Source of the DNA: Spirochaetota bacterium
GTDB lineage: Bacteria > Spirochaetota > Spirochaetia > SPDA01 > JAJSAL01
NCBI GenBank assembly: GCA_024274705.1
Contig: JAJSAL010000044.1
Coordinates: forward strand, 1-46,365
DNA: 46,365 nt
Direction: 5' to 3'
The notes beneath the pieces are model-generated. The model ran no database searches and was not told the origin of the DNA. It worked only from the letters and a program-made list of their open reading frames with translations. A program made the position numbers and the translations under genes. Positions 8,479 to 46,308 of the stretch are shown here, piece by piece. Position 1 is the first letter of the stretch; each line of letters starts with the position of its first letter.

Positions 8479-8491
8479 GCTTAAGCAACCG

Positions 8492-10278: not shown

Positions 10279-10346
10279 AAAAGGGGTCAGACCACTCTAT
10301 TATGAACAGTCCAACCCCACAATATCAATGACAGCAGGCGCTCTCT

Positions 10347-11645: not shown

Positions 11646-11700
11646 TTTTCACTCCTTTTATTATAGCGCTGGAATGGTGCGATTATACAGTAGCCCCTTG

Positions 11701-11713
11701 CTCTTGTCAAGAG
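11701..11713. promoter_or_regulatory. Perfect palindrome CTCTTG-T-CAAGAG in the divergent intergenic region, a candidate operator (possibly for the ROK regulator).
   Basis: Read directly from the sequence. It lies between the divergently transcribed SBP gene and the URO-D/AGE operon. Confidence 0.3.
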
Positions 11714-11758
11714 TTAATGTAAATATTACATAATGTTAAGATGTGAAGGTCTATATTA

Positions 11759-11787
11759 TTGACATATTACTAAATATGACCAATAAT
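11759..11787 (+). promoter_or_regulatory. Candidate sigma70 promoter TTGACA-17-AATAAT for the URO-D-fragment / AGE / URO-D operon.
   Basis: Hexamers read directly. They lie ~40 nt upstream of the ATG at 11827, which has an AAGAGGAAG Shine-Dalgarno. Confidence 0.35.
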
Positions 11788-11826
11788 ATACAATCTTACC
11801 ATAATAATATTATCAAGAGGAAGTAC

Positions 11827-13645: not shown

Positions 13646-14658
13646 CTTCCCTGGAACGCACCAGGAGGGCCATCAGAGGCGAACCGGTAGATCACATACC
13701 TTTTTTCCCCATTTCTCTTGCAAGCACCTGCCGGATCATGGGAGTTAAACAGCGATGCTTCTCCCTCGAACCGGAGGTCATGGCTGAAACCCTTATCAGG
13801 TTCCGCGAGAGGATCGGCTGCGACGGTATTTATGTCTCCAGGGATAACTGGGTGTACCACCAGGCCCTGGGAGGCGAAGTGGTATTTCCCGAAGATGCCG
13901 AATCCTTTGCGGAAGAGACTGTTCTGCAGCGGATAGGAGGGTTTAACAAGCTTTCCATCCCCGAACCATGGAACTCGCCGGGGATGAATACGGTGCTCAC
14001 CGCCGCCCGGATGGTCGTGGATGCCCTGGGTGATAGTTATTACATCCAGGCGAATATAGATACCGGTCCATTCAGTCTAGGAGGTGTTCTTCTTGGTGCG
14101 GAGAGGTTCCTTCATACTATCGTATCCGAAAAGGAAGCTGAGGTTCAAAAGTTTCTGGAATTCTGTACAGATGTCGTAGTTGCGTATGGAAAGGCGATGA
14201 TTGAAACCGGGGTACACGGTATCCAGTTCGGAGACTCCCTTGCCAGCTTGTTAGGAGCGGAACACTTTAAACAATTTGCACTTCCATGGGAACAGGAAGC
14301 GGCAAACAGGCTTGGGAATCGTAATTGTGACATATGGATTCATATTTGCGGTAAAACCGACCAGTTTCTGCACCTTCTTCGGAAGGTAAACATACAGGGA
14401 TTCGAAGTTGATGCGAAAGTTCCCATGACGCTTGCCAGAGAACTCCTGGGAAAGGAAATCGCCCTTAAAGGGAACTTGGATACCACGTTTCTCCTCCAGG
14501 CAACGTCACAAGCAGTGTACAAGACTGCGCTGGATATATTACGCAGCGGCGGGTTCAAAACAGGTGTCATTATGTCTCCAGGATGCGGAGTACCACGTAT
14601 GACCCCAACGGAAAATCTCCTTGCTATCCGGCAGGCATGTAAAGACTACACGGTATAA
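13642..14658 (+). CDS. URO-D/MtaA-like protein (methyltransferase-fold, zinc-motif-containing), full length.
   Basis: N-terminus RTRRAIRGEPVDHIPFFP, plus IWIHICGKT (H-x-C) and a C-terminal SPGCGVP, as in corrinoid:CoM methyltransferase MtaA/MtbA. Its start overlaps the AGE stop (ATGA). Confidence 0.7.
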   Translation: MTSLERTRRAIRGEPVDHIPFFPISLASTCRIMGVKQRCFSLEPEVMAETLIRFRERIGCDGIYVSRDNWVYHQALGGEVVFPEDAESFAEETVLQRIGGFNKLSIPEPWNSPGMNTVLTAARMVVDALGDSYYIQANIDTGPFSLGGVLLGAERFLHTIVSEKEAEVQKFLEFCTDVVVAYGKAMIETGVHGIQFGDSLASLLGAEHFKQFALPWEQEAANRLGNRNCDIWIHICGKTDQFLHLLRKVNIQGFEVDAKVPMTLARELLGKEIALKGNLDTTFLLQATSQAVYKTALDILRSGGFKTGVIMSPGCGVPRMTPTENLLAIRQACKDYTV

Positions 14659-22200: not shown

Positions 22201-23372
22201 CCCGGGTGAAGGACGATCCCCTCCTTGAAGGAGACACAGTGCTCATCCCCTACATGGACGGACTGATCAGCCGGTTCTGGGCTGCCTGTTTCAACAAGGC
22301 CGGTTATTCCAGCGTACTCCTGAATGCAGACGAAGTGTCCCTCAATACAGGGTACCGCTTTGCAAGCGGTGGGGAATGCATGCCCCTCGTATCAATTGCG
22401 GGCGGTGTTATCGAAGCAATGAAAGATAAAAACCTGGTACCGGAAAAGACCTACCTCTACCTTCCTACCCTGTGCCTGGCGTGTAACTTTCCCCAGTTTC
22501 CCGTTTTTTCCGCTATGGCGTTCCGGAACGCCGGCCTGGAAAAACTTAAAATCGGGCTGGTGAACATCATGTCCCCGGGAGACGTTCTCCCACACATCTT
22601 ATCGTTCCGCATCCTGGAATCCAACATCCTGGGGAGCCTGTTGTACAAACTCTATTTTCGGGTTAAACCCTATGAAATTGAAGCCGGCGGCACAGACAGG
22701 GTGTTCAAACAAAGTACCGGGAAGATTCTTTCCGGTATTTCCGGTGGGGAAGATCTGAAAAAAATCCTGAAAGATATCGTTGCCGATTTCAGCAGTATCG
22801 AAAGGGATGAGTCGGGAGGCAGGAAACCCCGCCTGGGCCTCTTAGGCGACCTCTATGTCAAGTTCAACGAAGTGGTTAATCAGAACCTCGTCGGCGTGGT
22901 TGATGAACTTGGGGGAGAACTTATCGTTCCTTCCCTTACGGAATATCCCTTTCACTTCTATGATGCAGACGTGCGCATCCACAACGACAATCCCAGGCCG
23001 TACCGCCTTCTCAAAGTAATCGAAGAACGGTACGAAAAAATCACCGAGGACCTTCTGGACGGATTATTGGAGCCTGATTTCAAGGAGTGTCTTACCCTGC
23101 TGGAAGAATACGGAATACGCCATTATATTGCCGGGGAAACGTCGATCAACCTTGGACGGGCACTGTACTGGATAAAGAACGGGCTGGTAGACGCGATTAT
23201 CCACGTGAATCCCATGTTCTGCTGCCCCGGGGTGGTAAGTGCATCGGTGTTCAGGAAGATTCAGGAAGATTTCCGTGTACCTATAATCGATATCTTTTAC
23301 GACGGAACAGGAGACCGGAACAGGGTACTGGTTCCCCACACCCATTTTCTCCGGGCGGCACGGGAACATTAA
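19251..23372 (+). CDS. Giant fusion protein carrying two BadF/BadG/BcrA/BcrD-type ATPase (CoA-substrate-specific enzyme activase) domains and 2-hydroxyacyl-CoA-dehydratase D-component-like (DUF2229) domains.
   Basis: Two ASKHA-type ATPase starts (LGIDIGSMYLGAVLLD and LGIDIGSTSTKAALI), Cys-containing dehydratase-like regions (CAVCSNNC, CLACNFPQ, C-terminal MFCCPGV), and a length of 1373 aa, typical of this uncharacterized family in anaerobes. Confidence 0.85.
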   Translation: MRKLGIDIGSMYLGAVLLDTERGVLHCSYGEHKGNILESFEAVLTDSRFNEFDTIGITGHLRPHQGLVFDTILSLARGIQYLVPGNSNTVSIGGESFCLILFDEHGTYKEHILNPPCAAGTGSFLQQQAERLGLSISQFAETAREFTGRAPSIATRCSVFAKTDIIHAMQEGYSRDSVSAGLCEGIARNIIDSLIKGRELHPPLALTGGVALNKKVTASLSSLSGVEITVPEHAHLAGAIGAALIGSAESCTPSSLIDEEKQHRRVRPVITMNGSHYPDFASVFFNDEDGVEIMTSREQIYELTDLYLGIDIGSTSTKAALITGTGDFVAGFYTATGGKPVDATASILNTARKTLNTGVLQAAAVAVTGSGRKMIGELFSADLVIDEITAHARAAVFLEPKADTIIEIGGQDSKFTRIRNGNVYYSTMNYVCAAGTGSFIEEQAKKLGVPLSEFSDLAMGSESPYLSDRCTVYMERDLGVLLGEGWKRSGLAASTLFSVRDNYLSKVVGKSPLGDYIVFQGATARNKALIACFEELLQKPIHVSEYCHLTGAIGAALLAVDKKITRSVFSFSLSAHASREETCAVCSNNCRLTVIEADGKTAGWGMKCGSDYESRKPRKKVISAPEKRYRRAMAHMYETPGDPGGNGITVAVPDFLYNSGYAPLWYSLFTRIGCRVVLPKPGRNLMDQGKKLVNSDFCAPMIYAHGMTEQLFAEKPDFLFSPVVINDNNPGQEEFLFKKKTEDAYFCYYSQYLPTITEHCTSLSGKGNIASPVIMFNEMSLQEVGNAIFSGTERFIPGLVLRDVHTALEQAYLDYQNCLDTWKESAEAAGNPSGEPEIVILGRPYVMFNPAMNLSIPEKFESLGAGVYWMEELDLAGFQPAFSAQFLSRMHWHYGKAILKAAEYAAQKDTMFPVFLTCFRCSPDAFLLSYVKDILEHYDKPFLVLQLDEHSSDVGYETRIEAGLHSFRNFIRDHGDERKTEAPSRVKDDPLLEGDTVLIPYMDGLISRFWAACFNKAGYSSVLLNADEVSLNTGYRFASGGECMPLVSIAGGVIEAMKDKNLVPEKTYLYLPTLCLACNFPQFPVFSAMAFRNAGLEKLKIGLVNIMSPGDVLPHILSFRILESNILGSLLYKLYFRVKPYEIEAGGTDRVFKQSTGKILSGISGGEDLKKILKDIVADFSSIERDESGGRKPRLGLLGDLYVKFNEVVNQNLVGVVDELGGELIVPSLTEYPFHFYDADVRIHNDNPRPYRLLKVIEERYEKITEDLLDGLLEPDFKECLTLLEEYGIRHYIAGETSINLGRALYWIKNGLVDAIIHVNPMFCCPGVVSASVFRKIQEDFRVPIIDIFYDGTGDRNRVLVPHTHFLRAAREH

Positions 23373-35013: not shown

Positions 35014-35553
35014 ATGGACCTGAAACACACGGCTATTCCGCCGGAATTCCTTAAAATACTGCCGGCAGGCATTAAGTTTCTTCATAAAAAAGGAAAAGAA
35101 TTCCTCGTTGTAGAGAAAGTGCACTGTTCAAAAGGACACAGCCTCATTGTGGATTCCGTCCGCATCCACGGAGAGCCGGCTATTGAGCTCGATGTCCTTA
35201 TTGAAGATCAGGAAGGGTCGTTTTTTATCGATGCGTTCTGGGGGAGTCATGCGAAACTGTATAACTTCATGCCCCGGCTGAAACAGTCGTCGCCTCTGGT
35301 ACAGGCTTTTTGCCCGGTATGCAAAGCATCTCTCGTTGTTAACCGGGAGTGTCCGATGGAGGGGTGCGATACGGACAAACACATCGTTCTCTACCTCCCG
35401 GGTGAAGGAAACCGGATCTTTGTGTGCGCACGCCTCGGCTGTCCCGGCCACTACCTGAGTGTGAGAAACCTTCCTCAGGGTATTTCGGAAAGCGTGAGCA
35501 ATATCAATTACTTCGGTACCCAGGTGGACGAAGACCTGTTTCAGGGCATCTAG
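35014..35553 (+). CDS. Cys/His-rich hypothetical protein (putative metal-binding), the first gene of the 2-oxoacid oxidoreductase operon.
   Basis: Start at MDLKHTA with an AGGAAG Shine-Dalgarno; the upstream part of the track ORF contains the terminator hairpin. Motifs HCSKGH, CPVC, CPMEGC and CARLGCPGH. It ends 7 nt before the ferredoxin gene. Confidence 0.5.
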   Translation: MDLKHTAIPPEFLKILPAGIKFLHKKGKEFLVVEKVHCSKGHSLIVDSVRIHGEPAIELDVLIEDQEGSFFIDAFWGSHAKLYNFMPRLKQSSPLVQAFCPVCKASLVVNRECPMEGCDTDKHIVLYLPGEGNRIFVCARLGCPGHYLSVRNLPQGISESVSNINYFGTQVDEDLFQGI

Positions 35554-35559: not shown

Positions 35560-35793
35560 TTGATGATGAACTATGTTGTCATCGACTCCACCCAGTGTAA
35601 AGGGTGCCGGCTCTGCATCGAGACCTGTCCCAGGCACTGTATCTCTTTAGGATCATCCCTGAACTCCATGGGTTTCCAGTACGCCTGTTTTCAGAGCTCA
35701 GAATGTACTGTTTGCGGTTTCTGCTACTACATCTGCCCTGAACCCGGGGCGATTACGGTACACAAAGGGGAACCCGAAGGAACCGCCTCATGA
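35560..35793 (+). CDS. 2-oxoacid:ferredoxin oxidoreductase delta subunit (2x[4Fe-4S] ferredoxin).
   Basis: CKGCRLCIETCP and CTVCGFCYYICP motifs, 77 aa. Confidence 0.8.
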   Translation: MMMNYVVIDSTQCKGCRLCIETCPRHCISLGSSLNSMGFQYACFQSSECTVCGFCYYICPEPGAITVHKGEPEGTAS

Positions 35794-36836
35794 ACAGGCA
35801 GCTGATGAAAGGAAACGAAGCCGTCGTATACGGTGCACTCCTGGGCGGGAGCACCCACTTTTTCGGATATCCCATCACTCCGGCCAGCGAAATCGCCCAT
35901 GCAGCGGCCTCCCTGTTCTCACAGACTGGTCGTGTGTTTCTCCAGGCGGAAGGTGAGGTGAATGCCATCAACATGGTGTACGGTGCGGCCGCGGCAGGAG
36001 CACGGGTGATGACAGCGACTTCCGGTCCCGGTCTTTCCCTGATGGCGGAAGGCATCTCGTATATCGCTGCCTGCGAGCTTCCCTGTGTGATCATCGATGT
36101 TCAGCGTGCCGGACCAGGCCTGGGAAATATCTGGCCGGAACAGAGCGACTACCACGCAGTTGTAAAAGGCGGGGGTCATGGTAATTATAAAAACATTGTC
36201 CTTGCTCCTAACTCCGCCCAGGAGATGTGTGATTTCACTTACAAAGCGTTTGGGCTTGCGGAAGAGTACAGGATGTCCGTCATTATCCTGTCCGACGCGT
36301 ACATTGGGCAGATGATGGAACCTGTGCAGCTGCCGGCAGAGATGAAGGCACCACACCGCCGGGAGTGGGCACTGTACGCAGATAGAGAGAGCAGGAACAA
36401 CCTGATCAATTCCATCTTCATGAATACCCGCCTCTCAGAGGAACACAACCTTCACCTTCAGGTTAAATATGCAGGGCTCCAGGGAACTGCGGAGTGGGAA
36501 GAATCATTTATCGATGACGCAGAGGTCCTGTTTGTCAGTTTCGGTATCGCCGCCCGTGTGTGCCTTTCAGCGGTATCGGACCTTCGCAGCCGGGGGGTAA
36601 AGGCGGGACTCCTCCGGCCGAAAACCTTGTACCCGTTCCCGGAAAGCCGTCTTAAGGAACTTGCGGTCCGGGCAAACCGGATAATAGTGGTAGAGCTGAA
36701 CAACGGGATGATGGCCGAGGATGTGGAACGCCTCTGCAGCGGTTCAACAGAGGTGGAGCGGTACAACTGGCTTGGCGGAACTGTACCTGCGTCCAGGATC
36801 ATCGTGGATAGGGTATTGGGAGAGAGCCATGATTAA
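35790..36836 (+). CDS. 2-oxoacid:ferredoxin oxidoreductase alpha subunit.
   Basis: MKGNEAVVYGALLGGSTHFFGYPITPASEI is a typical KorA/PorA/VorA N-terminus, ~350 aa. Confidence 0.85.
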   Translation: MNRQLMKGNEAVVYGALLGGSTHFFGYPITPASEIAHAAASLFSQTGRVFLQAEGEVNAINMVYGAAAAGARVMTATSGPGLSLMAEGISYIAACELPCVIIDVQRAGPGLGNIWPEQSDYHAVVKGGGHGNYKNIVLAPNSAQEMCDFTYKAFGLAEEYRMSVIILSDAYIGQMMEPVQLPAEMKAPHRREWALYADRESRNNLINSIFMNTRLSEEHNLHLQVKYAGLQGTAEWEESFIDDAEVLFVSFGIAARVCLSAVSDLRSRGVKAGLLRPKTLYPFPESRLKELAVRANRIIVVELNNGMMAEDVERLCSGSTEVERYNWLGGTVPASRIIVDRVLGESHD

Positions 36837-38244
36837 ATACTCAAAACCCGGGGCATTCTATGACCTTTTTACCCGAAAAGGAACGGAACAGCAGAACACC
36901 CACTATTGTCCCGGCTGCGGCCACGGTAACGCTCATAAGCTGATCGCAGAAGTAATCGACGAGCTGGACATCCAGAACCGGGTGATCTTCATCTCTCCTG
37001 TGGGATGCAGCGTATTCGGCTACTACTATTTTGACACGGGAAACATCCAGGCCGCCCACGGACGTGCACCCGCTGTAGCCACAGGACTGCGCAGGGCTTT
37101 AGACGACGCAATCATCATATCCTACCAGGGTGACGGCGACCTTGCGGGTATCGGCCTGGGAGGGATCATTCATGCGGCCAACCGGGGAGAGAACATCACC
37201 GTGTTTTTCATCAATAATGCGATCTACGGTATGACCGGCGGGCAGATGGCCCCAACTACCCTTCTCGGGCAGAAAACCCTGACAACACCCTTCGGGCGGG
37301 AGGCAGGAAAGGACGGGAGCCCCATAGGTATGGCGGAGCTGATGAATGCCCTTTCACCCCCTGTGTTCATCGAGCGGGTTTCCCTTGCAACGGCACCCAA
37401 GATCCTGAAAGCGAAAAAGGCCTTTAAAACCGCACTGGTAAACCAGGTGGAGAAAAAAGGATTTTCCTTCGTCGAGGTGCTGTCCCCCTGCCCGGTCAAC
37501 TGGAAGATGAATGCTGTTGATTCCCGAAAGTGGATCGAAGATCAGCTCGAGCCGGTGTTCCCGGTGAATAACTTCAGGAACAGGGAGGACGCTGAATCTC
37601 AGAGTTTTATTCAACAGCCGATGGATGATGAGCGGGTGCTGGCCCTTTTGCATTCAAAAAAAGAGATTGAGCTTCCTAAGCACGCTAAGAAGGTAGAGGA
37701 TCAATTCATCAAGATAGCCGGGTTCGGTGGTCAGGGGGTAATGTCCGCCGGGATTCTGATAGCAAACTGTGCCAACGTGGAAGGTCGGCATACCACGTGG
37801 CTGCCCTCCTACGGCCCTGAAATGCGGGGCGGTACTGCAAACGCTTCGGTCATCATATCCGGCAGGCGGATAGGTACTCCTCTGGTAGATGAACCGAATG
37901 TACTCATCGCCATGAATACACCCTCCCTGGACACCTTCGAGGAGCAGGTTAAACCCGGCGGACTGATCATCGTAAACACTTCCATTGTAAAAAGAGCGGT
38001 AAAACGGAAAGATGTACAGGTATACACCATTCCGGCAACTGATCTGGCAAAAAAAGAAGGGGTGCTCGCTGCGGCAAATGTGGCAATTACCGCTGCATAT
38101 ACACTCCTCACAGGTGCAGTCCAAATTGCTACATTGAAACAGGTGCTTCCCCTCTCCATCAAACGAAAGGATATAATCGATATCAACCTGAAGGTAATGG
38201 CTGCTGCAGAACGCTACGTCCGGGACCATCCGATTCAGGCATAA
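36829..38244 (+). CDS. 2-oxoacid:ferredoxin oxidoreductase fused beta (TPP-binding) and gamma subunits.
   Basis: Beta: CPGCGHG and the GDGD TPP motif. After a linker, the gamma domain KIAGFGGQGVMSAGILIANCA...YGPEMRGGTA. The start overlaps the alpha stop (ATGATTAA). Confidence 0.85.
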   Translation: MIKYSKPGAFYDLFTRKGTEQQNTHYCPGCGHGNAHKLIAEVIDELDIQNRVIFISPVGCSVFGYYYFDTGNIQAAHGRAPAVATGLRRALDDAIIISYQGDGDLAGIGLGGIIHAANRGENITVFFINNAIYGMTGGQMAPTTLLGQKTLTTPFGREAGKDGSPIGMAELMNALSPPVFIERVSLATAPKILKAKKAFKTALVNQVEKKGFSFVEVLSPCPVNWKMNAVDSRKWIEDQLEPVFPVNNFRNREDAESQSFIQQPMDDERVLALLHSKKEIELPKHAKKVEDQFIKIAGFGGQGVMSAGILIANCANVEGRHTTWLPSYGPEMRGGTANASVIISGRRIGTPLVDEPNVLIAMNTPSLDTFEEQVKPGGLIIVNTSIVKRAVKRKDVQVYTIPATDLAKKEGVLAAANVAITAAYTLLTGAVQIATLKQVLPLSIKRKDIIDINLKVMAAAERYVRDHPIQA

Positions 38245-38326: not shown

Positions 38327-38370
38327 AGAAATATTTCTCATTCCTTCGGGATTTCATTATCAAAAAACTA

Positions 38371-38631
38371 GTGGCAAAGTATACAGCACATCAGACACTC
38401 CATTGGCTGTTTGTGGGCATTATCGTTCTTGTTTTTACCCTGCTTATACAGGAGCGGGGTCTTTCTCTTTTCCAGGTGGGACTTTCCTTTGCCCTGTATT
38501 CCGGAGCGGTCCTGGCCCTGGAACTTTCCACGGGAGGGCTCGCGAATGCCGGGGGCAGGAGAAAAGTGTATGTCATTTCCCCGGGCAGCCTTGCCGCAAT
38601 CCAGCGGCGTTTTTCAGGAACTACTTGTTGA
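38371..38631 (+). pseudogene. 5' remnant of an MFS transporter gene (first two TM helices and the loop-2/3 GxLaDrxGrR-like motif only).
   Basis: TM1 WLFVGIIVLVFTLLI, TM2 LSFALYSGAVLALELSTGGLANAGGRRKVYV. The frame then degenerates and stops. No continuation is found in other frames before the next gene. Confidence 0.45.
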
Positions 38632-38747
38632 TCGATTTAAAGAAAAAACTGGTGGACAAAGAATCCATCACGATTTTCATCTCTCACTATCCGGATTATG
38701 ACTTTATCCATTTTGAAGGACCCCGTCCTACCTCGACGGCCTGAGCA

Positions 38748-39293
38748 TTAGGATCCGTTCAGCAGGTCGAACCCTTTTTTCATGGCCAGCAGATTTATCG
38801 CGTTAAGTGCTTTGTTCCTGGAAGATACAGCCTCGTCAAGGGCTTTCAGCGCCGTATCCAGGCTGGTCAGGTACGGACGGAGTTTGAATAGTACGCCCAG
38901 GGTTACCATGTTGGCGGATCTTAAGGAACCTGCACCTGCGGCTATATCGTTTGCCTTGACAGGTACGATTTCAATGTCCGACCTTTCGGGTTCCACATCG
39001 ATAAGGGAAGTATTGTAGATGAGAAGTCCCCCGGGGAGAACAGCCGGTTCGAACCGCAGCAGGGACGGTTTATTCATGATTACGCAAATTGACGGCTTCC
39101 GGATGACCGGTGACGCTACCTCATCATCGGTCACCACGACAGAACAGTTTGCCGTTCCTCCACGCATCTCGGCCCCGTAGGATGGAAGATGGGACACCGC
39201 CTTCCCTTCCCGCATGGCCGCTATACAAAGGATCCTCCCGGAAAGAAGTACTCCCTGTCCGCCAAACCCGGCGAAAATAATTTCTTCTGTCAT
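38748..39293 (-). CDS. 2-oxoacid:ferredoxin oxidoreductase gamma subunit (second operon).
   Basis: FAGFGGQGVLLSGRILCIAAMREG...YGAEMRGGTA, 181 aa. Confidence 0.8.
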   Translation of the reverse strand: MTEEIIFAGFGGQGVLLSGRILCIAAMREGKAVSHLPSYGAEMRGGTANCSVVVTDDEVASPVIRKPSICVIMNKPSLLRFEPAVLPGGLLIYNTSLIDVEPERSDIEIVPVKANDIAAGAGSLRSANMVTLGVLFKLRPYLTSLDTALKALDEAVSSRNKALNAINLLAMKKGFDLLNGS

Positions 39294-39304
39294 AGTACCT
39301 GTCC

Positions 39305-40060
39305 TTACCTGTCTCTGAAATTCTTGATCGGATAATAGGGAGTCATCACATTCTCCACCCAGTCCGCGGCGTCAGGTGTGGTCATTCCCCACCCGGTGGG
39401 GCACATGGAAAGAAACTCCACGAACGAGTATCCCTTCCCATTCACCTGGTTTTCCAGGGCTTTTTTAACAGCTTTTTTTGCCCTCAGGATGTTCTTTACA
39501 CTGTTAACGGAACACCGTTCGATAAACACCGGAGCTTCCAGAGTATTGATCAATTCGCAGGCACGGATGGGGAAACCCGCTTCAACAGGGTCCCGCCCGT
39601 ACGGCGAGGTCTGAGTTTTCTGACCTTCCATGGAGGTAGGAGCCATCTGCCCGCCGGTCATACCGTAGATGGCATTGTTTACATAGAATACGGTGATTTT
39701 CTCTCCACGGTTGGCGGCGTGGATGGATTCCCCTGTTCCTATGGCAAGGAGGTCCCCGTCCCCCTGGTATGCTATGATCGTTTTGTCCGGAAGGGCCCTT
39801 TTCAAACCGGTTGCCACGGCCTGGGCCCTGCCGTGAGCAGATTCGATGCCGTCAGCCAGGATGTAGTAGTAGATAAATACACTGCATCCTACAGGCGAAA
39901 CGACGATGGTTTGATCCTGTATACCGAGCTCATCGATTGCAGATGCCATCAATTTATGTATCGTTCCATGACCGCAGCCCGGGCAGTAATGGGTCGGCTT
40001 TTCCGTATGGGATTGAGGCCTGGAATAGACCAGTTTCATCTCTTCTTTTGTATCAATCAT
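39305..40060 (-). CDS. 2-oxoacid:ferredoxin oxidoreductase beta subunit (TPP-binding).
   Basis: CPGCGHG and GDGD motifs. It is paralogous (~55-60% identity by eye) to the beta part of the 36829..38244 gene. Confidence 0.85.
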   Translation of the reverse strand: MIDTKEEMKLVYSRPQSHTEKPTHYCPGCGHGTIHKLMASAIDELGIQDQTIVVSPVGCSVFIYYYILADGIESAHGRAQAVATGLKRALPDKTIIAYQGDGDLLAIGTGESIHAANRGEKITVFYVNNAIYGMTGGQMAPTSMEGQKTQTSPYGRDPVEAGFPIRACELINTLEAPVFIERCSVNSVKNILRAKKAVKKALENQVNGKGYSFVEFLSMCPTGWGMTTPDAADWVENVMTPYYPIKNFRDR

Positions 40061-41105
40061 GCTGTTCTACCCTCTTCATGATTTCTTCCACGTCAGGTAC
40101 GGTTCCTCCGGATCTGCCGTAGAAAGTGATGGGCCTTTTTCTGCCCAGCGCGAGTTTTACGTCCTCGATCATCTGTCCTTCATTCATCTCTACGACGAGC
40201 ACCCGTTCCGCATGGGAACAGTCCCGGGCCAGTTGTTCATACGGAAAGGGCCACAGGGTAATCGGCCTGAAAAGCCCCGCTTTGATCCCTTTTTTCCGCA
40301 GTCCGTTTATTGCGGCCTTACAGATCCGTGCAGAAATACCGAAGGCGGCTATCACGATATCCGCGTCTTCTACGTTATAGGTTTCGTACCGTATTTCCCC
40401 GGCTTCTATTTCCCGGTATCGTCCCTGGAGCATCTTGTTGTGTTCCTCCAGTTTTATTTCCGGCTTCAATCTTAAGGAACGGACGACCCGGGGTTCCCGT
40501 CCTTTACACCCTGTAACAGTCCATCCGGATTTATCGAAGGTTTTCCCGCTGGGTTCCGGCAGGACAAGGGGTTCAGACATCTGCCCCAGGTAGCCGTCGC
40601 CCAGGATCATCGCTACCACCCTGTACCGGTCAGCCAGATCAAAAGCGAGGACCGTAAGGTCTGCCGACTCCTGTACAGTACTCGGAGCCAGCACGATGGT
40701 ACGGTAATCCCCATGGCCCCCGCCCCGGGTGGCCTGGAAATAATCGGATTGGGCTCCGGATATATTGCCCAGTCCGGGACCTCCCCGCATCATATTCACT
40801 ACCACAGCCGGCAGCTCCGCCCCGGACATGTAGGAAATGCCTTCCTGTTTCAAACTGATACCCGGGGAAGACGATGAAGTCATCACCCTCTTTCCCGTGG
40901 CGGAGGTACCGAATACCATATTGATCGAAGCAATTTCACTTTCCGCCTGCACAAAAACTCCCTCCACCTGGGGAAGTCTCATGGACATGTAAGCAGGAAT
41001 TTCATTCTGCGGGGTGATAGGATAAGCGTAGTAGTATCTGCACCCGGCTATGATTGCCGCTTCCGCGATAGCTTCATTCCCTTTCATTAAAACTGTGGTG
41101 CTCAT
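40053..41105 (-). CDS. 2-oxoacid:ferredoxin oxidoreductase alpha subunit.
   Basis: MKGNEAIAEAAIIAGCRYYYAYPITPQNEI, 350 aa. Confidence 0.85.
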   Translation of the reverse strand: MSTTVLMKGNEAIAEAAIIAGCRYYYAYPITPQNEIPAYMSMRLPQVEGVFVQAESEIASINMVFGTSATGKRVMTSSSSPGISLKQEGISYMSGAELPAVVVNMMRGGPGLGNISGAQSDYFQATRGGGHGDYRTIVLAPSTVQESADLTVLAFDLADRYRVVAMILGDGYLGQMSEPLVLPEPSGKTFDKSGWTVTGCKGREPRVVRSLRLKPEIKLEEHNKMLQGRYREIEAGEIRYETYNVEDADIVIAAFGISARICKAAINGLRKKGIKAGLFRPITLWPFPYEQLARDCSHAERVLVVEMNEGQMIEDVKLALGRKRPITFYGRSGGTVPDVEEIMKRVEQHD

Positions 41106-41344
41106 TTCTTACCCTCACCTACGGTTTCTTTCCTGTATTTCCACACACGTACCACCAGATCGGGACAGATAATTGCACAGAATGTGCAGGCTGTACATTT
41201 ATCCGGATCGATGCATTCCGGGTACCGGTGTCCCTGACTGTTATATATTTCTGTCATAGCCAGAATATGTTCCGGACAGGCTCCGATGCAGAGTTCACAC
41301 CCTTTGCACCGCTCTATGTCGAATTCGGGTTTACCCTTTGCCAC
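41102..41344 (-). CDS. 2-oxoacid:ferredoxin oxidoreductase delta subunit (2x[4Fe-4S] ferredoxin).
   Basis: CKGCELCIGACP and CTACTFCAIICP motifs. Confidence 0.8.
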   Translation of the reverse strand: MAKGKPEFDIERCKGCELCIGACPEHILAMTEIYNSQGHRYPECIDPDKCTACTFCAIICPDLVVRVWKYRKETVGEGKK

Positions 41345-41361
41345 ACTTCTCTCCTGAACTG

Positions 41362-42237
41362 TTATTTTTTCAGCGACTGTTTCAACTCTTCTACAGCTTC
41401 TTCTTTCATACTAAACGACTGATCATCCCCGGGAAAAGTTGCATCCTCAATATCCCGGATGAACTCTTTTACAGCATTCAACTGGGTAGTATATACATCA
41501 GCATACACCTTAACGAATTTCGGTGTGAACCGTCTGAACAGGCCCACCATATCGTGAAGAACCAGGACCTGACCATCACAATAAACACCGCCACCGATCC
41601 CGATGGTGGGAATCGAGACTTTTTCGGTGATCAACTGGGACAGCTGTTTGGGTATCGCCTCCAGAATCAGGGCGAAGGCACCTGCATCCTCCAGCGCAAA
41701 AGCGTCATCCATCACTTTTTTCGCATTATCCAGGGACCTTCCCTGAACTTTAAACCCTCCCATAAGAGCTGCGGTCTGGGGAGTAAGACCGATATGGCCG
41801 AAGACGGGTATTCCGGCTTTATGGATAGCGGCAACCTTGTCCGCCATTTCCATCCCCCCTTCGAGTTTCACCGAATCGGCGCCTCCGTCTTTATACAGAA
41901 TCCCCGCATTGGTAACGGCCTGCTCTACAGAGATATTGTACGACATAAACGGCATGTCACCCACTACATGAGCCCGTGCAACCGCCCGTACAACCGCCCG
42001 GGTATGATGGAGCATTTCGGCCATGGTGACCGGGACCGTATCTTTGTATCCCAGCTCCACCATACCCAGGGAATCCCCCACCAGGATGATATCGATGCCT
42101 GCTTCGTCCACTATAAGACCCTGGGGATATGAATAGGCGGTAATCATGGAAATTTTCTTGCCTTCCCCTTTCATATTCAACAGATCGGAAATAAGCACTT
42201 TGTTAACCGGTTCCGGATGAACACTCATTGTCGGCAC
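41362..42237 (-). CDS. panB: 3-methyl-2-oxobutanoate hydroxymethyltransferase (ketopantoate hydroxymethyltransferase).
   Basis: KISMITAYSYPQGLIVDEAGIDIILVGDSLGMV matches the PanB signature. It lies 18 nt upstream of, and on the same strand as, the second oxidoreductase operon. Confidence 0.85.
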   Translation of the reverse strand: MPTMSVHPEPVNKVLISDLLNMKGEGKKISMITAYSYPQGLIVDEAGIDIILVGDSLGMVELGYKDTVPVTMAEMLHHTRAVVRAVARAHVVGDMPFMSYNISVEQAVTNAGILYKDGGADSVKLEGGMEMADKVAAIHKAGIPVFGHIGLTPQTAALMGGFKVQGRSLDNAKKVMDDAFALEDAGAFALILEAIPKQLSQLITEKVSIPTIGIGGGVYCDGQVLVLHDMVGLFRRFTPKFVKVYADVYTTQLNAVKEFIRDIEDATFPGDDQSFSMKEEAVEELKQSLKK

Positions 42238-42285
42238 TCCTCAACATTGATGATATTTCTGTATTATTCACCAAATTCCCGTTTG

Positions 42286-42315
42286 TTGACAATCCCTCGA
42301 AGGCTATTCTATTCT
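42286..42315 (+). promoter_or_regulatory. Candidate sigma70 promoter TTGACA-18-TATTCT for the peptidase-panE-M20-coaX operon.
   Basis: Hexamers read directly. It lies in the divergent region shared with panB. Confidence 0.3.
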
Positions 42316-42363: not shown

Positions 42364-43362
42364 ATGGAAAGAATGAAAGATGCAATTGTAGATGTACCGG
42401 GAATACTGGTCGGTCATGCACAGGACCTGCAGGCGGGAACGGGCTGTACTGTTGTGACCTGCAAGCAGGGCGCTGTGACCGGTGTGGACTGCAGGGGCGG
42501 AGCACCCGGAACCAGGGAGCTTACCCTTCTTAATCCGGAAAATGTTGTTCCCGTTGCCCACGCCGTATATATAGGAGGCGGGAGCGCCTTCGGCCTGGCA
42601 GGGGCCGATGGGGTGATGCAGTACCTTGAAGAGAGGAAGATCGGGTTTGACACCGGTTTCGCTCACGTTCCCATTGTTCCCGGCGCAATTCTGTTCGATC
42701 TGCTCATCGGTGATGCCAAACGACGCCCGGACAAACAGATGGGATATGATGCCTGTCTCAACATGAGCGATTCCAATACGGAACAGGGAACCGTCGGTGC
42801 AGGAACCGGTGCCGTGGTAGGAATAGCCGGCGGAGGCTCTGCAGTGATGAAAGGAGGAATCGGTACAGCCGGTATCAACCGAAACGGCTTGATCCTAGGG
42901 GCTCTTATCGCGGTAAACAGCATAGGAAACGTGGTCGACCCGGTATCAGGCGAAATCATAGCCGGGGCCTTAGGTCCGGAGGGTACATCCTTTCTTTCAA
43001 TTCTCGATATTCTTTCCAGGCACCCGGAAAAAGCAGCGGATGATTTCATCAAGCACACAACCATCGGGGTGGTAGCCACTAATGCAAAACTGACAAAAGC
43101 ACAGGCGAAACGGGTGGCAATGGTTGCCCACGACGGTATGGCAAGAACGATCATCCCCTCCCACACTCTGACAGACGGGGACACCCTGTTCTGCATGTCT
43201 GCGGGGTCTATCGAGGCATCGTTAAATGCGGTATGCATCCTTGCGGCCGAAGCAGTATCCCGGGCTATTCTGAAGGCTGTCAAATCGGCGACATCCATCT
43301 GTGGTGTAACAAGTTATACAGAACTATCCAAAGGGAAATCGGATCAGGTGCCCGGGTCATGA
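42364..43362 (+). CDS. DmpA/BapA-family (peptidase S58 / P1) aminopeptidase-amidase.
   Basis: DVPGILVGHAQD...AGTGCTVVTC at the N-terminus and a Gly-rich autoprocessing region. An alternative start is MKDAIV at 42373, which has a better Shine-Dalgarno. Confidence 0.75.
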   Translation: MERMKDAIVDVPGILVGHAQDLQAGTGCTVVTCKQGAVTGVDCRGGAPGTRELTLLNPENVVPVAHAVYIGGGSAFGLAGADGVMQYLEERKIGFDTGFAHVPIVPGAILFDLLIGDAKRRPDKQMGYDACLNMSDSNTEQGTVGAGTGAVVGIAGGGSAVMKGGIGTAGINRNGLILGALIAVNSIGNVVDPVSGEIIAGALGPEGTSFLSILDILSRHPEKAADDFIKHTTIGVVATNAKLTKAQAKRVAMVAHDGMARTIIPSHTLTDGDTLFCMSAGSIEASLNAVCILAAEAVSRAILKAVKSATSICGVTSYTELSKGKSDQVPGS

Positions 43363-44291
43363 ACATAGCAGTGATAGGCGCCGGGGCCATGGGCTCTCTC
43401 TACGGAGGTTATTTACATGCAGCCGGATGCGACGTGCTGCTTTACGATATCTATCATGAACACGTAGACGCAATTAATGCCAAGGGGCTGGTTATCGAAG
43501 AGCCGGCTGAAAACAGGGAAGAGCGGGTTCACCCTTTCGCGACAACCGATCCGGCGGGAATCGCTGATGCGGACGTTCTTATCGTGTTTGTAAAGTCCAC
43601 GGCCACCGAGTCGGTTGCCCGGCAGTTTAAAACGACGGTATCCCGGGATGCCGTTGTGGTAACCCTGCAGAACGGGTATGGAAACGAGGAGATCCTGAGA
43701 AATGTGTTCGGAAAAGAGCGTACGGCAGCAGGGGTAACCTCGGAAGGGGCGACCTTCCTGGGTCCCGGCCGTATACGTCACGCCGGAAGGGGACCTACAT
43801 ACTTAAGCATGTCCGACATGAACAACGAAAAGCTTAAACCCTTTATACGATGTCTCGAACAGGCTGGATTCGAAGCACATATCGAAAAACGGATACACGA
43901 TCTTATCTGGAGCAAACTCATCATCAATGTGGGGATCAACGCCCTTACCGCACTCACCGGTCTGAAAAACGGAGAGCTCCTTGATTTCGAAGAGACCCGG
44001 AGCCTGGTAAGGGAACTCGTGGAGGAGGCGGTATCTGTAGCCGGCGCCATGGGTGTGCACCTGACATACGATGATCCGGTGGCAGCGGTGTTCGATGTCG
44101 CCGGGAAAACAGCCCTTAACCGCTCTTCCATGCTTCAGGATTTCGACAGGAAAAGAACCTCGGAAATTCAGTTCATCAACGGTGCAATACTACGGGAAGC
44201 AGAGCGGGCGGGGATCCCTGTACCGGTAAACACGACCATCACCCGGCTGGTATCCACGGCGGATGCGGTACACCGGCGGGGAACATCATGA
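43359..44291 (+). CDS. panE: 2-dehydropantoate 2-reductase (ketopantoate reductase, ApbA/PanE family).
   Basis: The Rossmann N-terminus MNIAVIGAGAMGSLYGGYL and the ApbA-family C-terminal domain. Its start overlaps the peptidase stop (ATGA). Confidence 0.75.
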   Translation: MNIAVIGAGAMGSLYGGYLHAAGCDVLLYDIYHEHVDAINAKGLVIEEPAENREERVHPFATTDPAGIADADVLIVFVKSTATESVARQFKTTVSRDAVVVTLQNGYGNEEILRNVFGKERTAAGVTSEGATFLGPGRIRHAGRGPTYLSMSDMNNEKLKPFIRCLEQAGFEAHIEKRIHDLIWSKLIINVGINALTALTGLKNGELLDFEETRSLVRELVEEAVSVAGAMGVHLTYDDPVAAVFDVAGKTALNRSSMLQDFDRKRTSEIQFINGAILREAERAGIPVPVNTTITRLVSTADAVHRRGTS

Positions 44292-45523
44292 TCAGTTCCG
44301 AAGAAAAGATTCTTATTGAAGCTGTTGACCGGGATGAACTGATCGAACTAACCAGGAACCTGGTGCGAATCGATTCGGTTATCCGGCCGGAAACGGGGAA
44401 CACCGAAAAAGAGACGGTTCGGTTTATCGCGGAATGGATCGAAGAGGAGTTGGGTGTTCCCGCGGTTGTCGAAGAAGTGGAACCGGGACGGGAGAATGTC
44501 AGTGCTCTCATTGACTCCGGCAGACAAGGCAGATGTCTCCTCCTGGAAGGACATACCGATGTGGTTTCCGAGGGGGATCATTCTCTGTGGAAACACCCTC
44601 CATTCGAAGCTGTCATGGAACATGGAAGAATATACGGCCGGGGTTCCTGCGACATGAAAGGAGGCCTTGCGGTGAACCTTATCACAGGGAAAGCCCTCCT
44701 TCGGAGTGGTGTCCCCTTTTCCGGAAAACTAAAACTTGCCATTGTCTGCGATGAAGAAGGCATGATGATCGGTATTAAGGACTACATCCGGAAAGGCCAC
44801 GCAGATGGGGTGGATGCAGCCCTGCTGTCCGAACCGGAGGAAAACCAGCTCTGCCTGAGCATGAAAGGGGCCATCCGGGCCCTGGTGAGGGTCAATGGGA
44901 GAATGGCCCACGGAGCCATGCCCAGGACAGGCATCAATCCCGCCACCAGGCTGGCGCGAATCATCCTGGCATACGAACGCTACGAGACAGAGGAAATATC
45001 CCGCTGCGGTGAAGACCCGTTTTTAGGATTTCCTTCTATCACCTTTACCGTCATTCACGCACCTCCCCCTGGAGAACCGGCCCAGCTCAATGTGATGCCC
45101 GGTACAGCTACAGGATATCTGGATATACGTACCGTACCCGCCCAGAATCACCACGATATCCGAACACGGCTCAAGGAAATTCTCACAGAACTCGCAGAGA
45201 GCGATCCTGATTTTTCGGCGGAAATTGATTTTATCGAAGACCGGCCCGTTGTCTCTATGGAAAAAACAGAACCCATAGTACAGTATGCGAAAGGAGCCTA
45301 CAGGGACATAACAGGTAAAGCGCCTGTTTACAACGGGGTCCCCGGTGCTACGGACGGAACCTTTTTACGGGCATGGAGAGGGATTCCTTCCCTGGTAAAC
45401 GGACCGGGTCCGCGGCATATGCCCCACCGGACGGATGAATATATCGATACCGATGAATTATACGAAGCGGCCTGTATCTATGTTCTTACCGCTTACCGGT
45501 TCTTGAGCGGGGATTCGGCATAA
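44288..45523 (+). CDS. M20-family metallo-amidohydrolase (ArgE/DapE/carnosinase/beta-alanine-synthase family).
   Basis: LLLEGHTDVV and DMKGGLA metal-ligand motifs. Its start overlaps the panE stop (ATGA). Confidence 0.75.
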   Translation: MISSEEKILIEAVDRDELIELTRNLVRIDSVIRPETGNTEKETVRFIAEWIEEELGVPAVVEEVEPGRENVSALIDSGRQGRCLLLEGHTDVVSEGDHSLWKHPPFEAVMEHGRIYGRGSCDMKGGLAVNLITGKALLRSGVPFSGKLKLAIVCDEEGMMIGIKDYIRKGHADGVDAALLSEPEENQLCLSMKGAIRALVRVNGRMAHGAMPRTGINPATRLARIILAYERYETEEISRCGEDPFLGFPSITFTVIHAPPPGEPAQLNVMPGTATGYLDIRTVPAQNHHDIRTRLKEILTELAESDPDFSAEIDFIEDRPVVSMEKTEPIVQYAKGAYRDITGKAPVYNGVPGATDGTFLRAWRGIPSLVNGPGPRHMPHRTDEYIDTDELYEAACIYVLTAYRFLSGDSA

Positions 45524-45531: not shown

Positions 45532-46308
45532 TTGATCATGCTGTTAGCGGTTGATATCGGGAATACCAATATCGTCATAGGCATCTATGACCAGGGCACA
45601 TGGAAGCATCATTGGCGTATCCGTACTGTCCAGGAAAAGATGCCCGACGAGTACCGGGTTCTGTTTCGTCATTTCCTGCACGAAGCCGGCCTGGAACTTG
45701 ATTCTCCGGATCAGGTGTATATTTCCAGCGTTGTCCCTCCCCTTACCGGTGGGATAAGTCAGATGCTGGGAGAACAGACAAAAAACGTTCCGGTTATCAT
45801 CAACCATACAATCAATACGGGTCTCTCCTTTGCCGTAGATAATCCGGCGGAGGTGGGACCGGACCTGATAGCAGACGCTGTGGCTGCCCATTCCCGGTTC
45901 AACGATGCATGCATCATCGTCGACTTCGGAACCGCTACGACCCTTACGGCGGTAACCGGGAAGCTCGAGTTCTTAGGTGTAGCCATAGCACCGGGAATGG
46001 GACTCTCCGCAGCCGCCCTTGCAGGCAACACGGCCCAGCTTCCCAACATCGACATATCACCTCCGGCGAAATGCATCGGCAGGAATACGCCGGAATCCAT
46101 TCAATCCGGGATCGTTCTTGGCAACCTGAGCATGGTGGAAGGAATGATAGACAGGATGCGGAAAGAGATGGGCACCGAAGCTAAAGCTATTGCTACAGGC
46201 GGACTTGCGCCACTGATGGCTCCCCTTACTGATTACTTCTCGGCAATCGATCCATGGCTTACCCTGGAAGGGATACGCCTGATAGCTCTGAAAAACCGAC
46301 GAGGATAA
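45532..46308 (+). CDS. coaX: Type III pantothenate kinase.
   Basis: MLLAVDIGNTNIVIGIY is the CoaX/Baf signature N-terminus, ~255 aa. Confidence 0.85.
   Translation: MIMLLAVDIGNTNIVIGIYDQGTWKHHWRIRTVQEKMPDEYRVLFRHFLHEAGLELDSPDQVYISSVVPPLTGGISQMLGEQTKNVPVIINHTINTGLSFAVDNPAEVGPDLIADAVAAHSRFNDACIIVDFGTATTLTAVTGKLEFLGVAIAPGMGLSAAALAGNTAQLPNIDISPPAKCIGRNTPESIQSGIVLGNLSMVEGMIDRMRKEMGTEAKAIATGGLAPLMAPLTDYFSAIDPWLTLEGIRLIALKNRRG

What the first reader, a model, noticed from the sequence alone, without database searches (positions are those of the whole stretch)
38748..42237. panB fused transcriptionally to a four-subunit 2-oxoacid:ferredoxin oxidoreductase
PanB consumes 2-ketoisovalerate. It lies 18 nt upstream of, and on the same strand as, a delta-alpha-beta-gamma OFOR operon. 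In anaerobes that make valine by reductive carboxylation of isobutyryl-CoA (e.g. rumen and gut bacteria), a VOR-type OFOR generates 2-ketoisovalerate. Co-transcription with panB suggests this OFOR is a ketoisovalerate oxidoreductase feeding pantoate synthesis directly.
Basis: inference. Interest (0 to 1): 0.55.

Follow-up and report, generated by a model that had tools for sequence, protein, structure and literature searches.

The report
panB operon with a branched-chain ketoacid oxidoreductase
An uncultured spirochaete has placed the first gene of vitamin B5 (pantoate) synthesis in one operon with an ordinary ferredoxin enzyme that interconverts isobutyryl-CoA plus CO2 and that gene's substrate, which suggests, but does not prove, that pantoate is made from isobutyrate.

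Summary
On the minus strand, panB (42228..41362) is followed after 17 nt by delta-alpha-beta-gamma OFOR genes (41344..38748). These genes overlap or nearly abut, and no terminator-like site lies at the panB-delta junction.

The OFOR is not a 2-oxoglutarate or pyruvate enzyme. Its alpha subunit passes NCBIfam's VorB model. In a tree built with assayed enzymes, alpha+beta falls in the clade of branched-chain 2-oxoacid enzymes (M. marburgensis, C. sporogenes, I. bartlettii, B. hydrogenotrophica), with 97-98% bootstrap support.

A second VOR paralogue lies 500 bp away. It has a beta-gamma fusion and is sister to the anabolic M. marburgensis enzyme. A divergent S58-panE-M20-coaX operon makes the whole region a pantoate/CoA locus.

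The panB-VOR junction recurs in nine distinct relatives (alpha 69-93% identical) whose outer flanks differ. It is absent from about 150 other loci of the family across many phyla.

The family, co-transcription and functional coupling through 2-ketoisovalerate are supported. The direction of the reaction (synthase or oxidase) and the absence of ilv genes could not be tested.

The enzyme itself is ordinary, and NCBI's annotation pipeline (PGAP) already names close homologues VorB. Only the lineage-specific operon context is new.

The parts
41362..42228 (-). panB, 3-methyl-2-oxobutanoate hydroxymethyltransferase. The longest ORF extends to GTG 42237; ATG 42228 has a GAGGAG ribosome-binding site.
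   Evidence: Pfam PF02548, E 5e-109, profile positions 2-258 of 259. NCBIfam TIGR00222 equivalog, 318 bits (cut-off 208). The 288-aa form is in the protein collection.
42263..42292 (-). Sigma-70-like promoter match upstream of panB (TTGTCA-18-AATAAT). A divergent match for the plus-strand operon lies at 42286..42315.
   Evidence: These are consensus matches only: 6 sites found against 4.5 expected in shuffles.
41345..41361 (-). 17-nt panB-delta spacer with AGGAG 6 nt before the GTG start of delta. There is no room for a terminator.
   Evidence: Sequence read; no terminator-like site at the junction.
41102..41344 (-). OFOR delta subunit, a 2x[4Fe-4S] ferredoxin-like protein (CKGCELCIGACP and CTACTFCAIICP).
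   Evidence: Pfam Fer4 families; NCBIfam PorD/KorD/OorD-type partial hits.
40053..41105 (-). OFOR alpha subunit (VorB family), with the YPITPQNE motif.
   Evidence: NF005507 VorB, 534 bits (cut-off 399). POR_N + PFOR_II. Tree placement.
39305..40060 (-). OFOR beta subunit. It has the TPP-binding GDGD...NN motif and the cluster cysteines (CPGC, VGCS, MCPTGW).
   Evidence: PF02775; sequence; 61% identical to the beta part of the second cluster.
38748..39293 (-). OFOR gamma subunit (GFGGQG motif).
   Evidence: PF01558, E 1e-33.
42364..43362 (+). S58/P1-family Ntn hydrolase, first gene of the divergent operon.
   Evidence: PF03576, E 2.5e-44. PDB sequence hits to nylon hydrolases and to ThnT. The gene pairs with panE in all eight panB-linked loci whose sequence reaches far enough upstream.
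43359..44291 (+). panE, 2-dehydropantoate 2-reductase (ATGA overlap with the S58 stop codon).
   Evidence: TIGR00745, 281 bits (cut-off 141); ApbA + ApbA_C.
44288..45523 (+). M20 ArgE/DapE-family deacylase (ATGA overlap with panE).
   Evidence: TIGR01910, 231.5 bits (cut-off 217.6); PF01546 and PF07687.
45532..46308 (+). coaX, type III pantothenate kinase.
   Evidence: NF009855, 267 bits (cut-off 233); PF03309.
35560..38244 (+). Second, paralogous VOR: delta2 35560..35793, alpha2 35790..36836, and a beta-gamma fusion 36829..38244.
   Evidence: alpha2 scores 461 bits on NF005507. alpha 44%, beta 61% and gamma 44% identical to the panB-linked set. Sister to M. marburgensis VOR with bootstrap 100. 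M. marburgensis VorA is also a beta-gamma fusion (sequence).
35014..35553 (+). Conserved Cys-rich 179-aa ORF immediately upstream of delta2; function unknown.
   Evidence: 62% identical over 179 aa to the ORF in the same position in L081. No Pfam or NCBIfam hit.
38362..38732 (+). Gene remnants between the two VOR clusters: the first 76 aa of an MFS transporter and a fragment of an HTH regulator.
   Evidence: tblastn with the intact L081 genes: MFS 62% over residues 4-76; HTH 36% over residues 143-189.

Best explanation
The five genes form one transcript that encodes PanB and a four-subunit, thiamine-diphosphate and iron-sulfur dependent branched-chain 2-oxoacid:ferredoxin oxidoreductase of the VOR family.

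The enzyme catalyses the reversible reaction isobutyryl-CoA + CO2 + reduced ferredoxin <-> 2-ketoisovalerate + CoA + oxidised ferredoxin. 2-Ketoisovalerate is the substrate of PanB. PanB adds a C1 unit from methylene-tetrahydrofolate to give ketopantoate, and the PanE encoded in the divergent operon reduces ketopantoate to pantoate.

The most likely reading is that, in this spirochaete lineage, the operon couples supply of 2-ketoisovalerate by reductive carboxylation of isobutyryl-CoA to pantoate and CoA synthesis.

Shown here: gene identities, family placement, operon structure, and conservation of the junction. Inferred: that 2-ketoisovalerate is the physiological substrate or product, and that the enzyme runs in the synthase direction.
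For: Operon anatomy: 17-nt gap, overlapping downstream genes, no terminator at the junction.

VOR family membership:
- NF005507 VorB, 534 bits against a cut-off of 399.
- 52-54% identity to four assayed branched-chain enzymes, against 33-39% to OGORs.
- VOR-like clade bootstrap 98; sub-clade with all four assayed enzymes 97; OGOR clade 100.
- 24 of 28 discriminating columns in the VOR state.

The family includes an enzyme listed as an anabolic 2-oxoisovalerate synthase, M. marburgensis MTBMA_c10900-10930 (PMC3087415).

Family-level gene context in Bacillota links these OFORs to butyrate kinase (TIGR02707, 511 bits), a leucine-dehydrogenase-type enzyme and sigma-54 regulators. The C. sporogenes VOR cluster figure likewise lists phosphate butyryltransferase and butyrate kinase among the linked genes.

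The panB-delta-alpha-beta-gamma junction is kept in nine distinct sequences at 69-93% alpha identity. They fall in two supported subclades (bootstrap 100 and 91). Their outer flanks differ.

The neighbourhood is devoted to pantoate and CoA: panE and coaX sit in a translationally coupled divergent operon.

In L086 folD, which supplies PanB's methylene-THF, follows gamma on the same strand.

An operon led by a low-flux vitamin gene fits a biosynthetic role better than a high-flux fermentative one (inference).
Against: - Direction is not readable from sequence.
- The bacterial members that have been studied genetically or assayed (C. sporogenes, I. bartlettii, B. hydrogenotrophica) work oxidatively in amino-acid fermentation. 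They are broad in substrate range, taking pyruvate, branched-chain, methionine-derived and aromatic 2-oxoacids (PMC13290082).
- The window encodes no enzyme that would make isobutyryl-CoA from isobutyrate (no ptb, buk or acyl-CoA ligase). The relative L081 does have an AMP-binding ligase and an ackA-family kinase nearby.
- The linkage is missing in equally close spirochaete relatives (L087, L172, L092-L097) and in about 150 loci from other phyla. It is therefore a lineage-specific arrangement, not a general rule.
- The ilv status of the genome is unknown.
- A second VOR next door, sister to the anabolic archaeal enzyme, could be the real synthase.
Confidence: 0.5

Rival explanations
1. The VOR works in the oxidative direction: valine -> 2-ketoisovalerate -> isobutyryl-CoA -> isobutyrate + ATP, as in branched-chain amino-acid fermentation. 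panB shares the operon because both enzymes draw on the same 2-ketoisovalerate pool, or because the CoA-dependent enzyme is co-regulated with CoA synthesis. PanB would then be a side branch of a catabolic flux, not its sink.
For: - All bacterial family members with experimental data are catabolic (bioRxiv 10.1101/401489; PMC13290082).
- In Bacillota the family sits with leucine-dehydrogenase-type and butyrate kinase genes.
- L081 has an acetate/propionate-family kinase (TIGR00016, 477 bits) next to panB.
- L088 has an SLC6/NSS amino-acid-type transporter just upstream of panB.
- Own knowledge: free-living spirochaetes ferment branched-chain amino acids during starvation.
Against: - The window has no aminotransferase, amino-acid dehydrogenase, ptb or buk next to the operon.
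- The conserved partners are all pantoate or CoA genes (panE, coaX).
- folD follows the operon in L086.
- A high-flux energy pathway led by a vitamin gene would be unusual (inference).
Confidence: 0.3
2. The adjacency has no specific metabolic meaning. A broad-specificity OFOR (pyruvate, branched-chain or aromatic 2-oxoacids) landed next to panB through a rearrangement in one spirochaete lineage, and is read through from the panB promoter.
For: - The linkage is confined to a narrow group and absent from about 150 other loci.
- The relation between the two linked subclades is unresolved (bootstrap 11).
- Family members are promiscuous, and sequence does not predict their preference reliably (PMC13290082).
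Against: - The junction persists at short spacing in nine sequences that have diverged to about 70% alpha and 73% PanB identity, while the outer flanks changed.
- The shared metabolite, 2-ketoisovalerate, gives a direct biochemical reason for the link.
Confidence: 0.15
3. The cluster is a 2-oxoglutarate:ferredoxin oxidoreductase (korDABG), as the JGI/KEGG-style annotation of its homologues says.
For: - JGI names many close homologues '2-oxoglutarate ferredoxin oxidoreductase subunit alpha'.
- The nearest solved structures by sequence include 2-oxoglutarate enzymes (8ys5, 6n2n).
Against: - OGOR NCBIfam models score far below their cut-offs: NF007206 246 against 579; NF006412 316 against 411.
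- Only 33-39% identity to OGORs.
- Excluded from the OGOR clade, which has bootstrap 100.
- OGOR state at only 1 of 28 discriminating columns.
Confidence: 0.03

Closest known systems
Methanothermobacter marburgensis 2-oxoisovalerate:ferredoxin oxidoreductase (VorABC, MTBMA_c10900-10930)
   Same: Same OFOR family: 52% identity of alpha+beta to the panB-linked enzyme and 55% to the second cluster. The second cluster shares its beta-gamma fusion and is its sister (bootstrap 100). [quoted passage not shown]
   Different: It is archaeal, has three polypeptides, and is not reported next to panB. The panB-linked enzyme has separate beta and gamma subunits.
Clostridium sporogenes VOR (CLOSPO_00146-00149, 'porA') and the assayed gut homologues CLOBAR_01193-01196 and RUMHYD_00549-00553
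   Same: Four-gene delta-alpha-beta-gamma OFORs. They are 52-54% identical in alpha+beta and lie in the same 97%-supported sub-clade. They are active on 2-ketoisovalerate and the other branched-chain 2-oxoacids (PMC13290082).
   Different: They act catabolically, producing branched short-chain fatty acids. The cluster figure lists a P-loop/hypothetical gene, phosphate butyryltransferase and butyrate kinase among the linked genes. They have a broad substrate range. None of these partner genes lies next to the window's operon, which carries panB instead.
Canonical bacterial pantothenate clusters (panBCD, panBC, panE elsewhere)
   Same: panB and panE are standard, full-length members of their families.
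   Different: There is no panC or panD in the 46-kb window. panB is fused to a VOR operon. panE sits with an S58 hydrolase, an M20 deacylase and coaX.
2-oxoglutarate:ferredoxin oxidoreductases (KorAB/OorDABC; PDB 6n2n, 8ys5)
   Same: Same superfamily, same domain set, and the nearest solved structures by sequence.
   Different: A separate clade (bootstrap 100). The window's proteins do not reach the OGOR model cut-offs.

Membership tests
VOR-type OFOR (NCBIfam NF005507 VorB family; 'VOR-like' clade of the Gibson et al. framework as used in PMC13290082) | The alpha subunit reaches the curated family cut-off. | tested here: met
   534 bits against a cut-off of 399. The second paralogue scores 461 bits.
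VOR-type OFOR (NCBIfam NF005507 VorB family; 'VOR-like' clade of the Gibson et al. framework as used in PMC13290082) | alpha+beta groups with enzymes shown to use branched-chain 2-oxoacids, apart from OGOR and POR. | tested here: met
   NJ trees: VOR-like clade 98%; sub-clade with the four assayed enzymes 97%; OGOR clade 100%. VOR state at 24 of 28 discriminating columns.
VOR-type OFOR (NCBIfam NF005507 VorB family; 'VOR-like' clade of the Gibson et al. framework as used in PMC13290082) | A complete cofactor-binding subunit set: YPITP in alpha, the TPP GDGD...NN motif and four cluster cysteines in beta, two CxxCxxCxxxCP motifs in delta, and a gamma subunit. | tested here: met
   Read directly from the translations; Pfam domains.
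VOR-type OFOR (NCBIfam NF005507 VorB family; 'VOR-like' clade of the Gibson et al. framework as used in PMC13290082) | Catalytic activity with 2-ketoisovalerate or isobutyryl-CoA. | not testable with these tools
   Needs an anaerobic enzyme assay. Two VOR-like enzymes in PMC13290082 preferred aromatic substrates, so sequence alone is not proof.
VOR-type OFOR (NCBIfam NF005507 VorB family; 'VOR-like' clade of the Gibson et al. framework as used in PMC13290082) | Neighbourhood of branched-chain acid genes (ptb, buk, leucine dehydrogenase, P-loop partner), as in Bacillota members. | tested here: not met
   None of these genes is in the window. They are present in many Bacillota loci of the family. 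This is a contextual feature, not a defining one.
2-oxoglutarate:ferredoxin oxidoreductase (KOR/OGOR) | Reaches the OGOR model cut-offs and clusters with OGORs. | tested here: not met
   NF007206 246 against 579; NF006412 316 against 411. Outside the OGOR clade.
PanB (3-methyl-2-oxobutanoate hydroxymethyltransferase) | Full-length match above the equivalog cut-off. | tested here: met
   TIGR00222 318 against 208; NF001452 361 against 272; Pfam profile positions 2-258 of 259.
Isobutyrate-dependent (reductive carboxylation) route to 2-ketoisovalerate | Absence of ilvBN/ilvC/ilvD, and presence of an isobutyrate-activating enzyme in the same genome. | not testable with these tools
   Only the 46-kb contig is available. 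It has no ilv genes and no ptb, buk or acyl-CoA ligase. The exact-sequence look-up of the PanB protein to find its contig and assembly returned nothing.

The most novel reading that the evidence does not exclude
The whole 11-kb locus would be a self-contained CoA-supply island of a spirochaete lineage that cannot make 2-ketoisovalerate de novo.

- Exogenous isobutyrate is carboxylated by a dedicated VOR to feed PanB and PanE.
- The ThnT-like S58 hydrolase and the M20 deacylase salvage pantothenate or beta-alanine from pantetheine-type amides.
- CoaX then phosphorylates the pantothenate.

Isobutyrate from neighbouring fermenters would then act as a vitamin precursor. That would be a cross-feeding dependency not described for pantothenate.
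Probability: 0.2. Interest if true: 0.6.

Novelty: new member of a known kind. Interest (0 to 1): 0.35.

Why it matters
If the VOR really supplies PanB, CoA synthesis in these uncultured spirochaetes would depend on branched short-chain fatty acids released by other anaerobes and on low-potential ferredoxin. That would add a vitamin dimension to the long-known isobutyrate requirement of some anaerobes, and it would suggest a cultivation supplement.

The result also has a practical side for annotation. This widespread four-subunit OFOR family is called korA (2-oxoglutarate) by one pipeline and VorB by another. Placement alongside assayed enzymes favours VorB.

The enzyme chemistry and both gene families are well known. 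The finding is an incremental gene-context observation, not a new mechanism.

Tried and rejected
- **OGOR reading (JGI names, nearest PDB entries).** Rejected by model cut-offs and phylogeny.
- **Archaeal POR/VOR type (Thermococcales).** Only 25% identity; the Thermococcus litoralis POR/VOR-type sequence served as the outgroup.
- **General panB-VOR association across the family.** Searched in 80 genome loci and 80 metagenome loci and not found outside the close clade.
- **Regulatory RNA or tRNA in the locus.** None in the whole window.
- **Prior description.** No paper in the library combines isobutyrate, valine, carboxylation, pantothenate and ferredoxin. None links panB to a ferredoxin oxidoreductase; the one candidate, the Geobacter genome paper, was irrelevant.
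- **Substrate-pocket residues from the OGOR structure papers.** Gibson et al. 2016 is not held, and a search for the MmOGOR paper found nothing useful. I used clade-discriminating columns instead.
- **folD as a conserved operon member.** Present only in L086.


Full report
**Observation.** The six-frame ORF list and the minus-strand sequence show five consecutive genes.
- panB: longest ORF 42237..41362. The likely start is ATG 42228, behind GAGGAG.
- delta 41344..41102, alpha 41105..40053, beta 40060..39305, gamma 39293..38748.
- The panB stop (41364..41362) and the GTG start of delta are separated by 17 nt that contain AGGAG.
- delta/alpha overlap by 4 nt and alpha/beta by 8 nt; beta/gamma are 11 nt apart.
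- PanB is a full-length family member (Pfam 5e-109; TIGR00222 318 bits against a cut-off of 208). The four downstream proteins carry the standard OFOR domains.
- A consensus scan finds a promoter-like site upstream of panB and nothing at the panB-delta junction.
- No Rfam family or tRNA is present anywhere in the window.

**Surroundings.** The operon sits in a wider locus.
- Divergent from panB is a translationally coupled plus-strand operon: an S58/P1-family hydrolase (42364..43362), panE (43359..44291; TIGR00745 281 bits against 141), an M20 ArgE/DapE-type deacylase (44288..45523) and coaX (45532..46308).
- Convergent with gamma, 500 bp away, is a second OFOR: delta2 35560..35793, alpha2 35790..36836 and a beta-gamma fusion 36829..38244. 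Its alpha, beta and gamma parts are 44%, 61% and 44% identical to the first set.
- The 500-bp gap holds remnants of an MFS transporter and an HTH regulator. Both genes are intact in a relative.
- The rest of the window (sugar ABC transporter, URO-D paralogues, topoisomerase IV-type genes, and others) contains no ilv, panC, panD, ptb or buk gene.
- The window is a whole NCBI contig. Its nearest homologues come from Spirochaetales/Spirochaetia MAGs.

**What kind of OFOR.**
- The alpha subunit passes the curated cut-off of NCBIfam NF005507, '3-methyl-2-oxobutanoate dehydrogenase subunit VorB' (534 against 399). It fails every OGOR, POR, IOR and oxalate model.
- NCBI's annotation pipeline (PGAP) already names close homologues VorB, whereas JGI calls them 2-oxoglutarate enzymes.
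- To settle the conflict I took the concatenated alpha+beta sequences of characterised OFORs from Table S6 of PMC13290082 and built NJ trees.
- Both window enzymes fall in the VOR-like clade (98% of 300 bootstraps). Within it they fall in the sub-clade (97%) that holds all four enzymes shown to prefer branched-chain 2-oxoacids: M. marburgensis VOR, C. sporogenes CLOSPO_00147-8, I. bartlettii CLOBAR_01195-4 and B. hydrogenotrophica RUMHYD_00551-0.
- They lie apart from the aromatic-preferring sub-branch and from the OGOR clade (100%).
- Identity of the panB-linked alpha+beta is 52-54% to those four enzymes, 33-39% to OGORs and 25% to POR-type enzymes.
- At 28 columns that are fixed and different between OGORs and the four VORs, it has the VOR residue at 24 and the OGOR residue at 1.
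- The second cluster is sister to the M. marburgensis enzyme (100%) and shares its beta-gamma fusion.

**Family-level context.**
- A scan of one genome per species returned 80 loci (alpha 55-68% identical) from Spirochaetota, Bacillota, Planctomycetota, Nitrospirota, Omnitrophota and other phyla.
- The delta-alpha-beta-gamma core is constant across them.
- In Bacillota the cluster is repeatedly preceded by recN, spoIVB, spo0A, a sigma-54 activator, a leucine-dehydrogenase-type gene, butyrate kinase (TIGR02707, 511 bits) and a 230-aa P-loop protein.
- From my own knowledge, this is the position and partner set of the Bacillus subtilis bkd operon, with the OFOR in place of the NAD-dependent dehydrogenase complex.
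- The C. sporogenes VOR construct begins with a similar P-loop gene, and its cluster figure lists phosphate butyryltransferase and butyrate kinase among the linked genes.
- This independently supports a branched-chain 2-oxoacid role for the family.

**Is the panB link conserved?**
- tblastn of the window's proteins against all 169 loci held at that point finds panB beside the OFOR only in the closest relatives.
- With further look-ups, nine distinct sequences carry panB-delta-alpha-beta-gamma: the window, L085 (alpha 93% identical), L084/L090 (80%), L081-83 (78%), L170 (72%), L086, L091 and L171 (70%), and L088/89 (69%).
- In these, panB-delta gaps range from roughly 9 to 123 nt.
- All eight linked loci whose sequence reaches far enough upstream also keep the divergent S58-panE pair. 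Several keep M20 and coaX as well.
- The outer flanks differ. L086 has folD after gamma. L088/89 have an SLC6-type transporter before panB. L081 has an acetate/propionate-family kinase and an AMP-binding ligase. L170 has a membrane iron-sulfur protein after gamma.
- Equally similar spirochaete OFORs lack panB (L087, L172, L092-L097), as do about 150 more distant loci.
- In an alpha tree the linked sequences form two supported groups (100% and 91%). The mutual relation of the two groups is unresolved.
- The link is therefore lineage-specific but maintained. That argues for function, not accident.

**Mechanism and its limits.** The shared metabolite is 2-ketoisovalerate. It is the product of the VOR in the carboxylating direction, its substrate in the oxidative direction, and the substrate of PanB.

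I consider the synthase reading the most likely (0.5), for these reasons:
- The conserved partners are all pantoate or CoA genes.
- In L086, one of the linked relatives, folD, which supplies PanB's C1 donor, follows gamma on the same strand.
- The family contains an anabolic member.
- A vitamin gene leads the operon.

It is not shown. The evidence against it is:
- The studied bacterial members are catabolic and promiscuous.
- No isobutyrate-activating gene lies in the window.

The alternatives are the oxidative reading (0.3), in which PanB taps a catabolic 2-ketoisovalerate pool; a neutral-adjacency reading (0.15); and the OGOR reading, which is effectively excluded.

**Novelty.**
- Searches of the paper library found no description of a panB-VOR operon.
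- The enzyme itself is a routine member of a widespread family that is already named by automatic annotation.
- Reductive carboxylation of isobutyryl-CoA is textbook anaerobe biochemistry.
- What is new is a conserved, lineage-specific gene arrangement that gives a testable hypothesis. Interest is modest.

Noticed in passing
window 42364..43362 (+); same gene in L081, L084, L086, L088, L170, L171: An S58/P1-family Ntn hydrolase heads the panE-M20-coaX operon. It is paired with panE in every panB-VOR-linked locus whose sequence reaches that far. By sequence it matches nylon hydrolases (2.6e-60), an L-aminopeptidase/D-esterase, and ThnT (6e-45). From my own knowledge, ThnT is the pantetheine hydrolase of thienamycin biosynthesis. 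The protein may therefore salvage pantothenate or beta-alanine from pantetheine-like amides.
   Followed up: partly
window 44288..45523 (+): An M20 ArgE/DapE-family deacylase (TIGR01910, just above its cut-off) is translationally coupled between panE and coaX. No role for such an enzyme in pantothenate metabolism is obvious. panC and panD are absent from the window.
   Followed up: partly
window 35560..38244 (+): A second VOR paralogue with a beta-gamma fusion. It is sister (bootstrap 100) to the anabolic M. marburgensis VorABC and converges on the panB-linked cluster. The pair of VORs is also present in L081.
   Followed up: yes
window 35014..35553 (+): A Cys-rich 179-aa ORF directly upstream of the second VOR. 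It is 62% identical to the ORF at the same position in L081 and has no Pfam or NCBIfam match.
   Followed up: partly
window 38362..38732 (+): Remnants of an MFS transporter (first 76 aa) and of an HTH regulator. Both genes are intact between the two VOR clusters in L081, so this genome has a deletion here.
   Followed up: yes
L086 7674..8576 (+): folD (methylene-THF dehydrogenase/cyclohydrolase) follows the gamma gene on the same strand. In that relative, both PanB substrates could be supplied from one gene string. It was not found near the operon in the other linked loci.
   Followed up: yes
L088 2396..4051 (+) and L089 3734..5389 (+): An SLC6/NSS transporter lies between S58-panE and panB. 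Its nearest solved relatives are eukaryote-type proline, glycine, GABA and taurine carriers. From my own knowledge, some of these carry beta-alanine.
   Followed up: partly
L011, L022, L024, L041, L044 and 15 other loci, directly upstream of delta: A 230-aa P-loop (GSGKTE) protein with no NCBIfam match is a frequent first gene of the VOR cluster in Bacillota. It resembles the start of CLOSPO_00145 in the C. sporogenes VOR construct. It may be an uncharacterised accessory or maturation factor.
   Followed up: partly
window 19251..23372 (+): A 1373-aa protein with two BadF/BcrAD-type ATPase domains plus DUF2229 ('CoA enzyme activase'). No dehydratase partner gene was noticed nearby.
   Followed up: no
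window 6129..14658: Three URO-D-family paralogues surround a sugar ABC transporter, a ROK-family gene and a GlcNAc 2-epimerase-family gene. The one at 11743..12447 matches only the C-terminal part of the URO-D profile.
   Followed up: no
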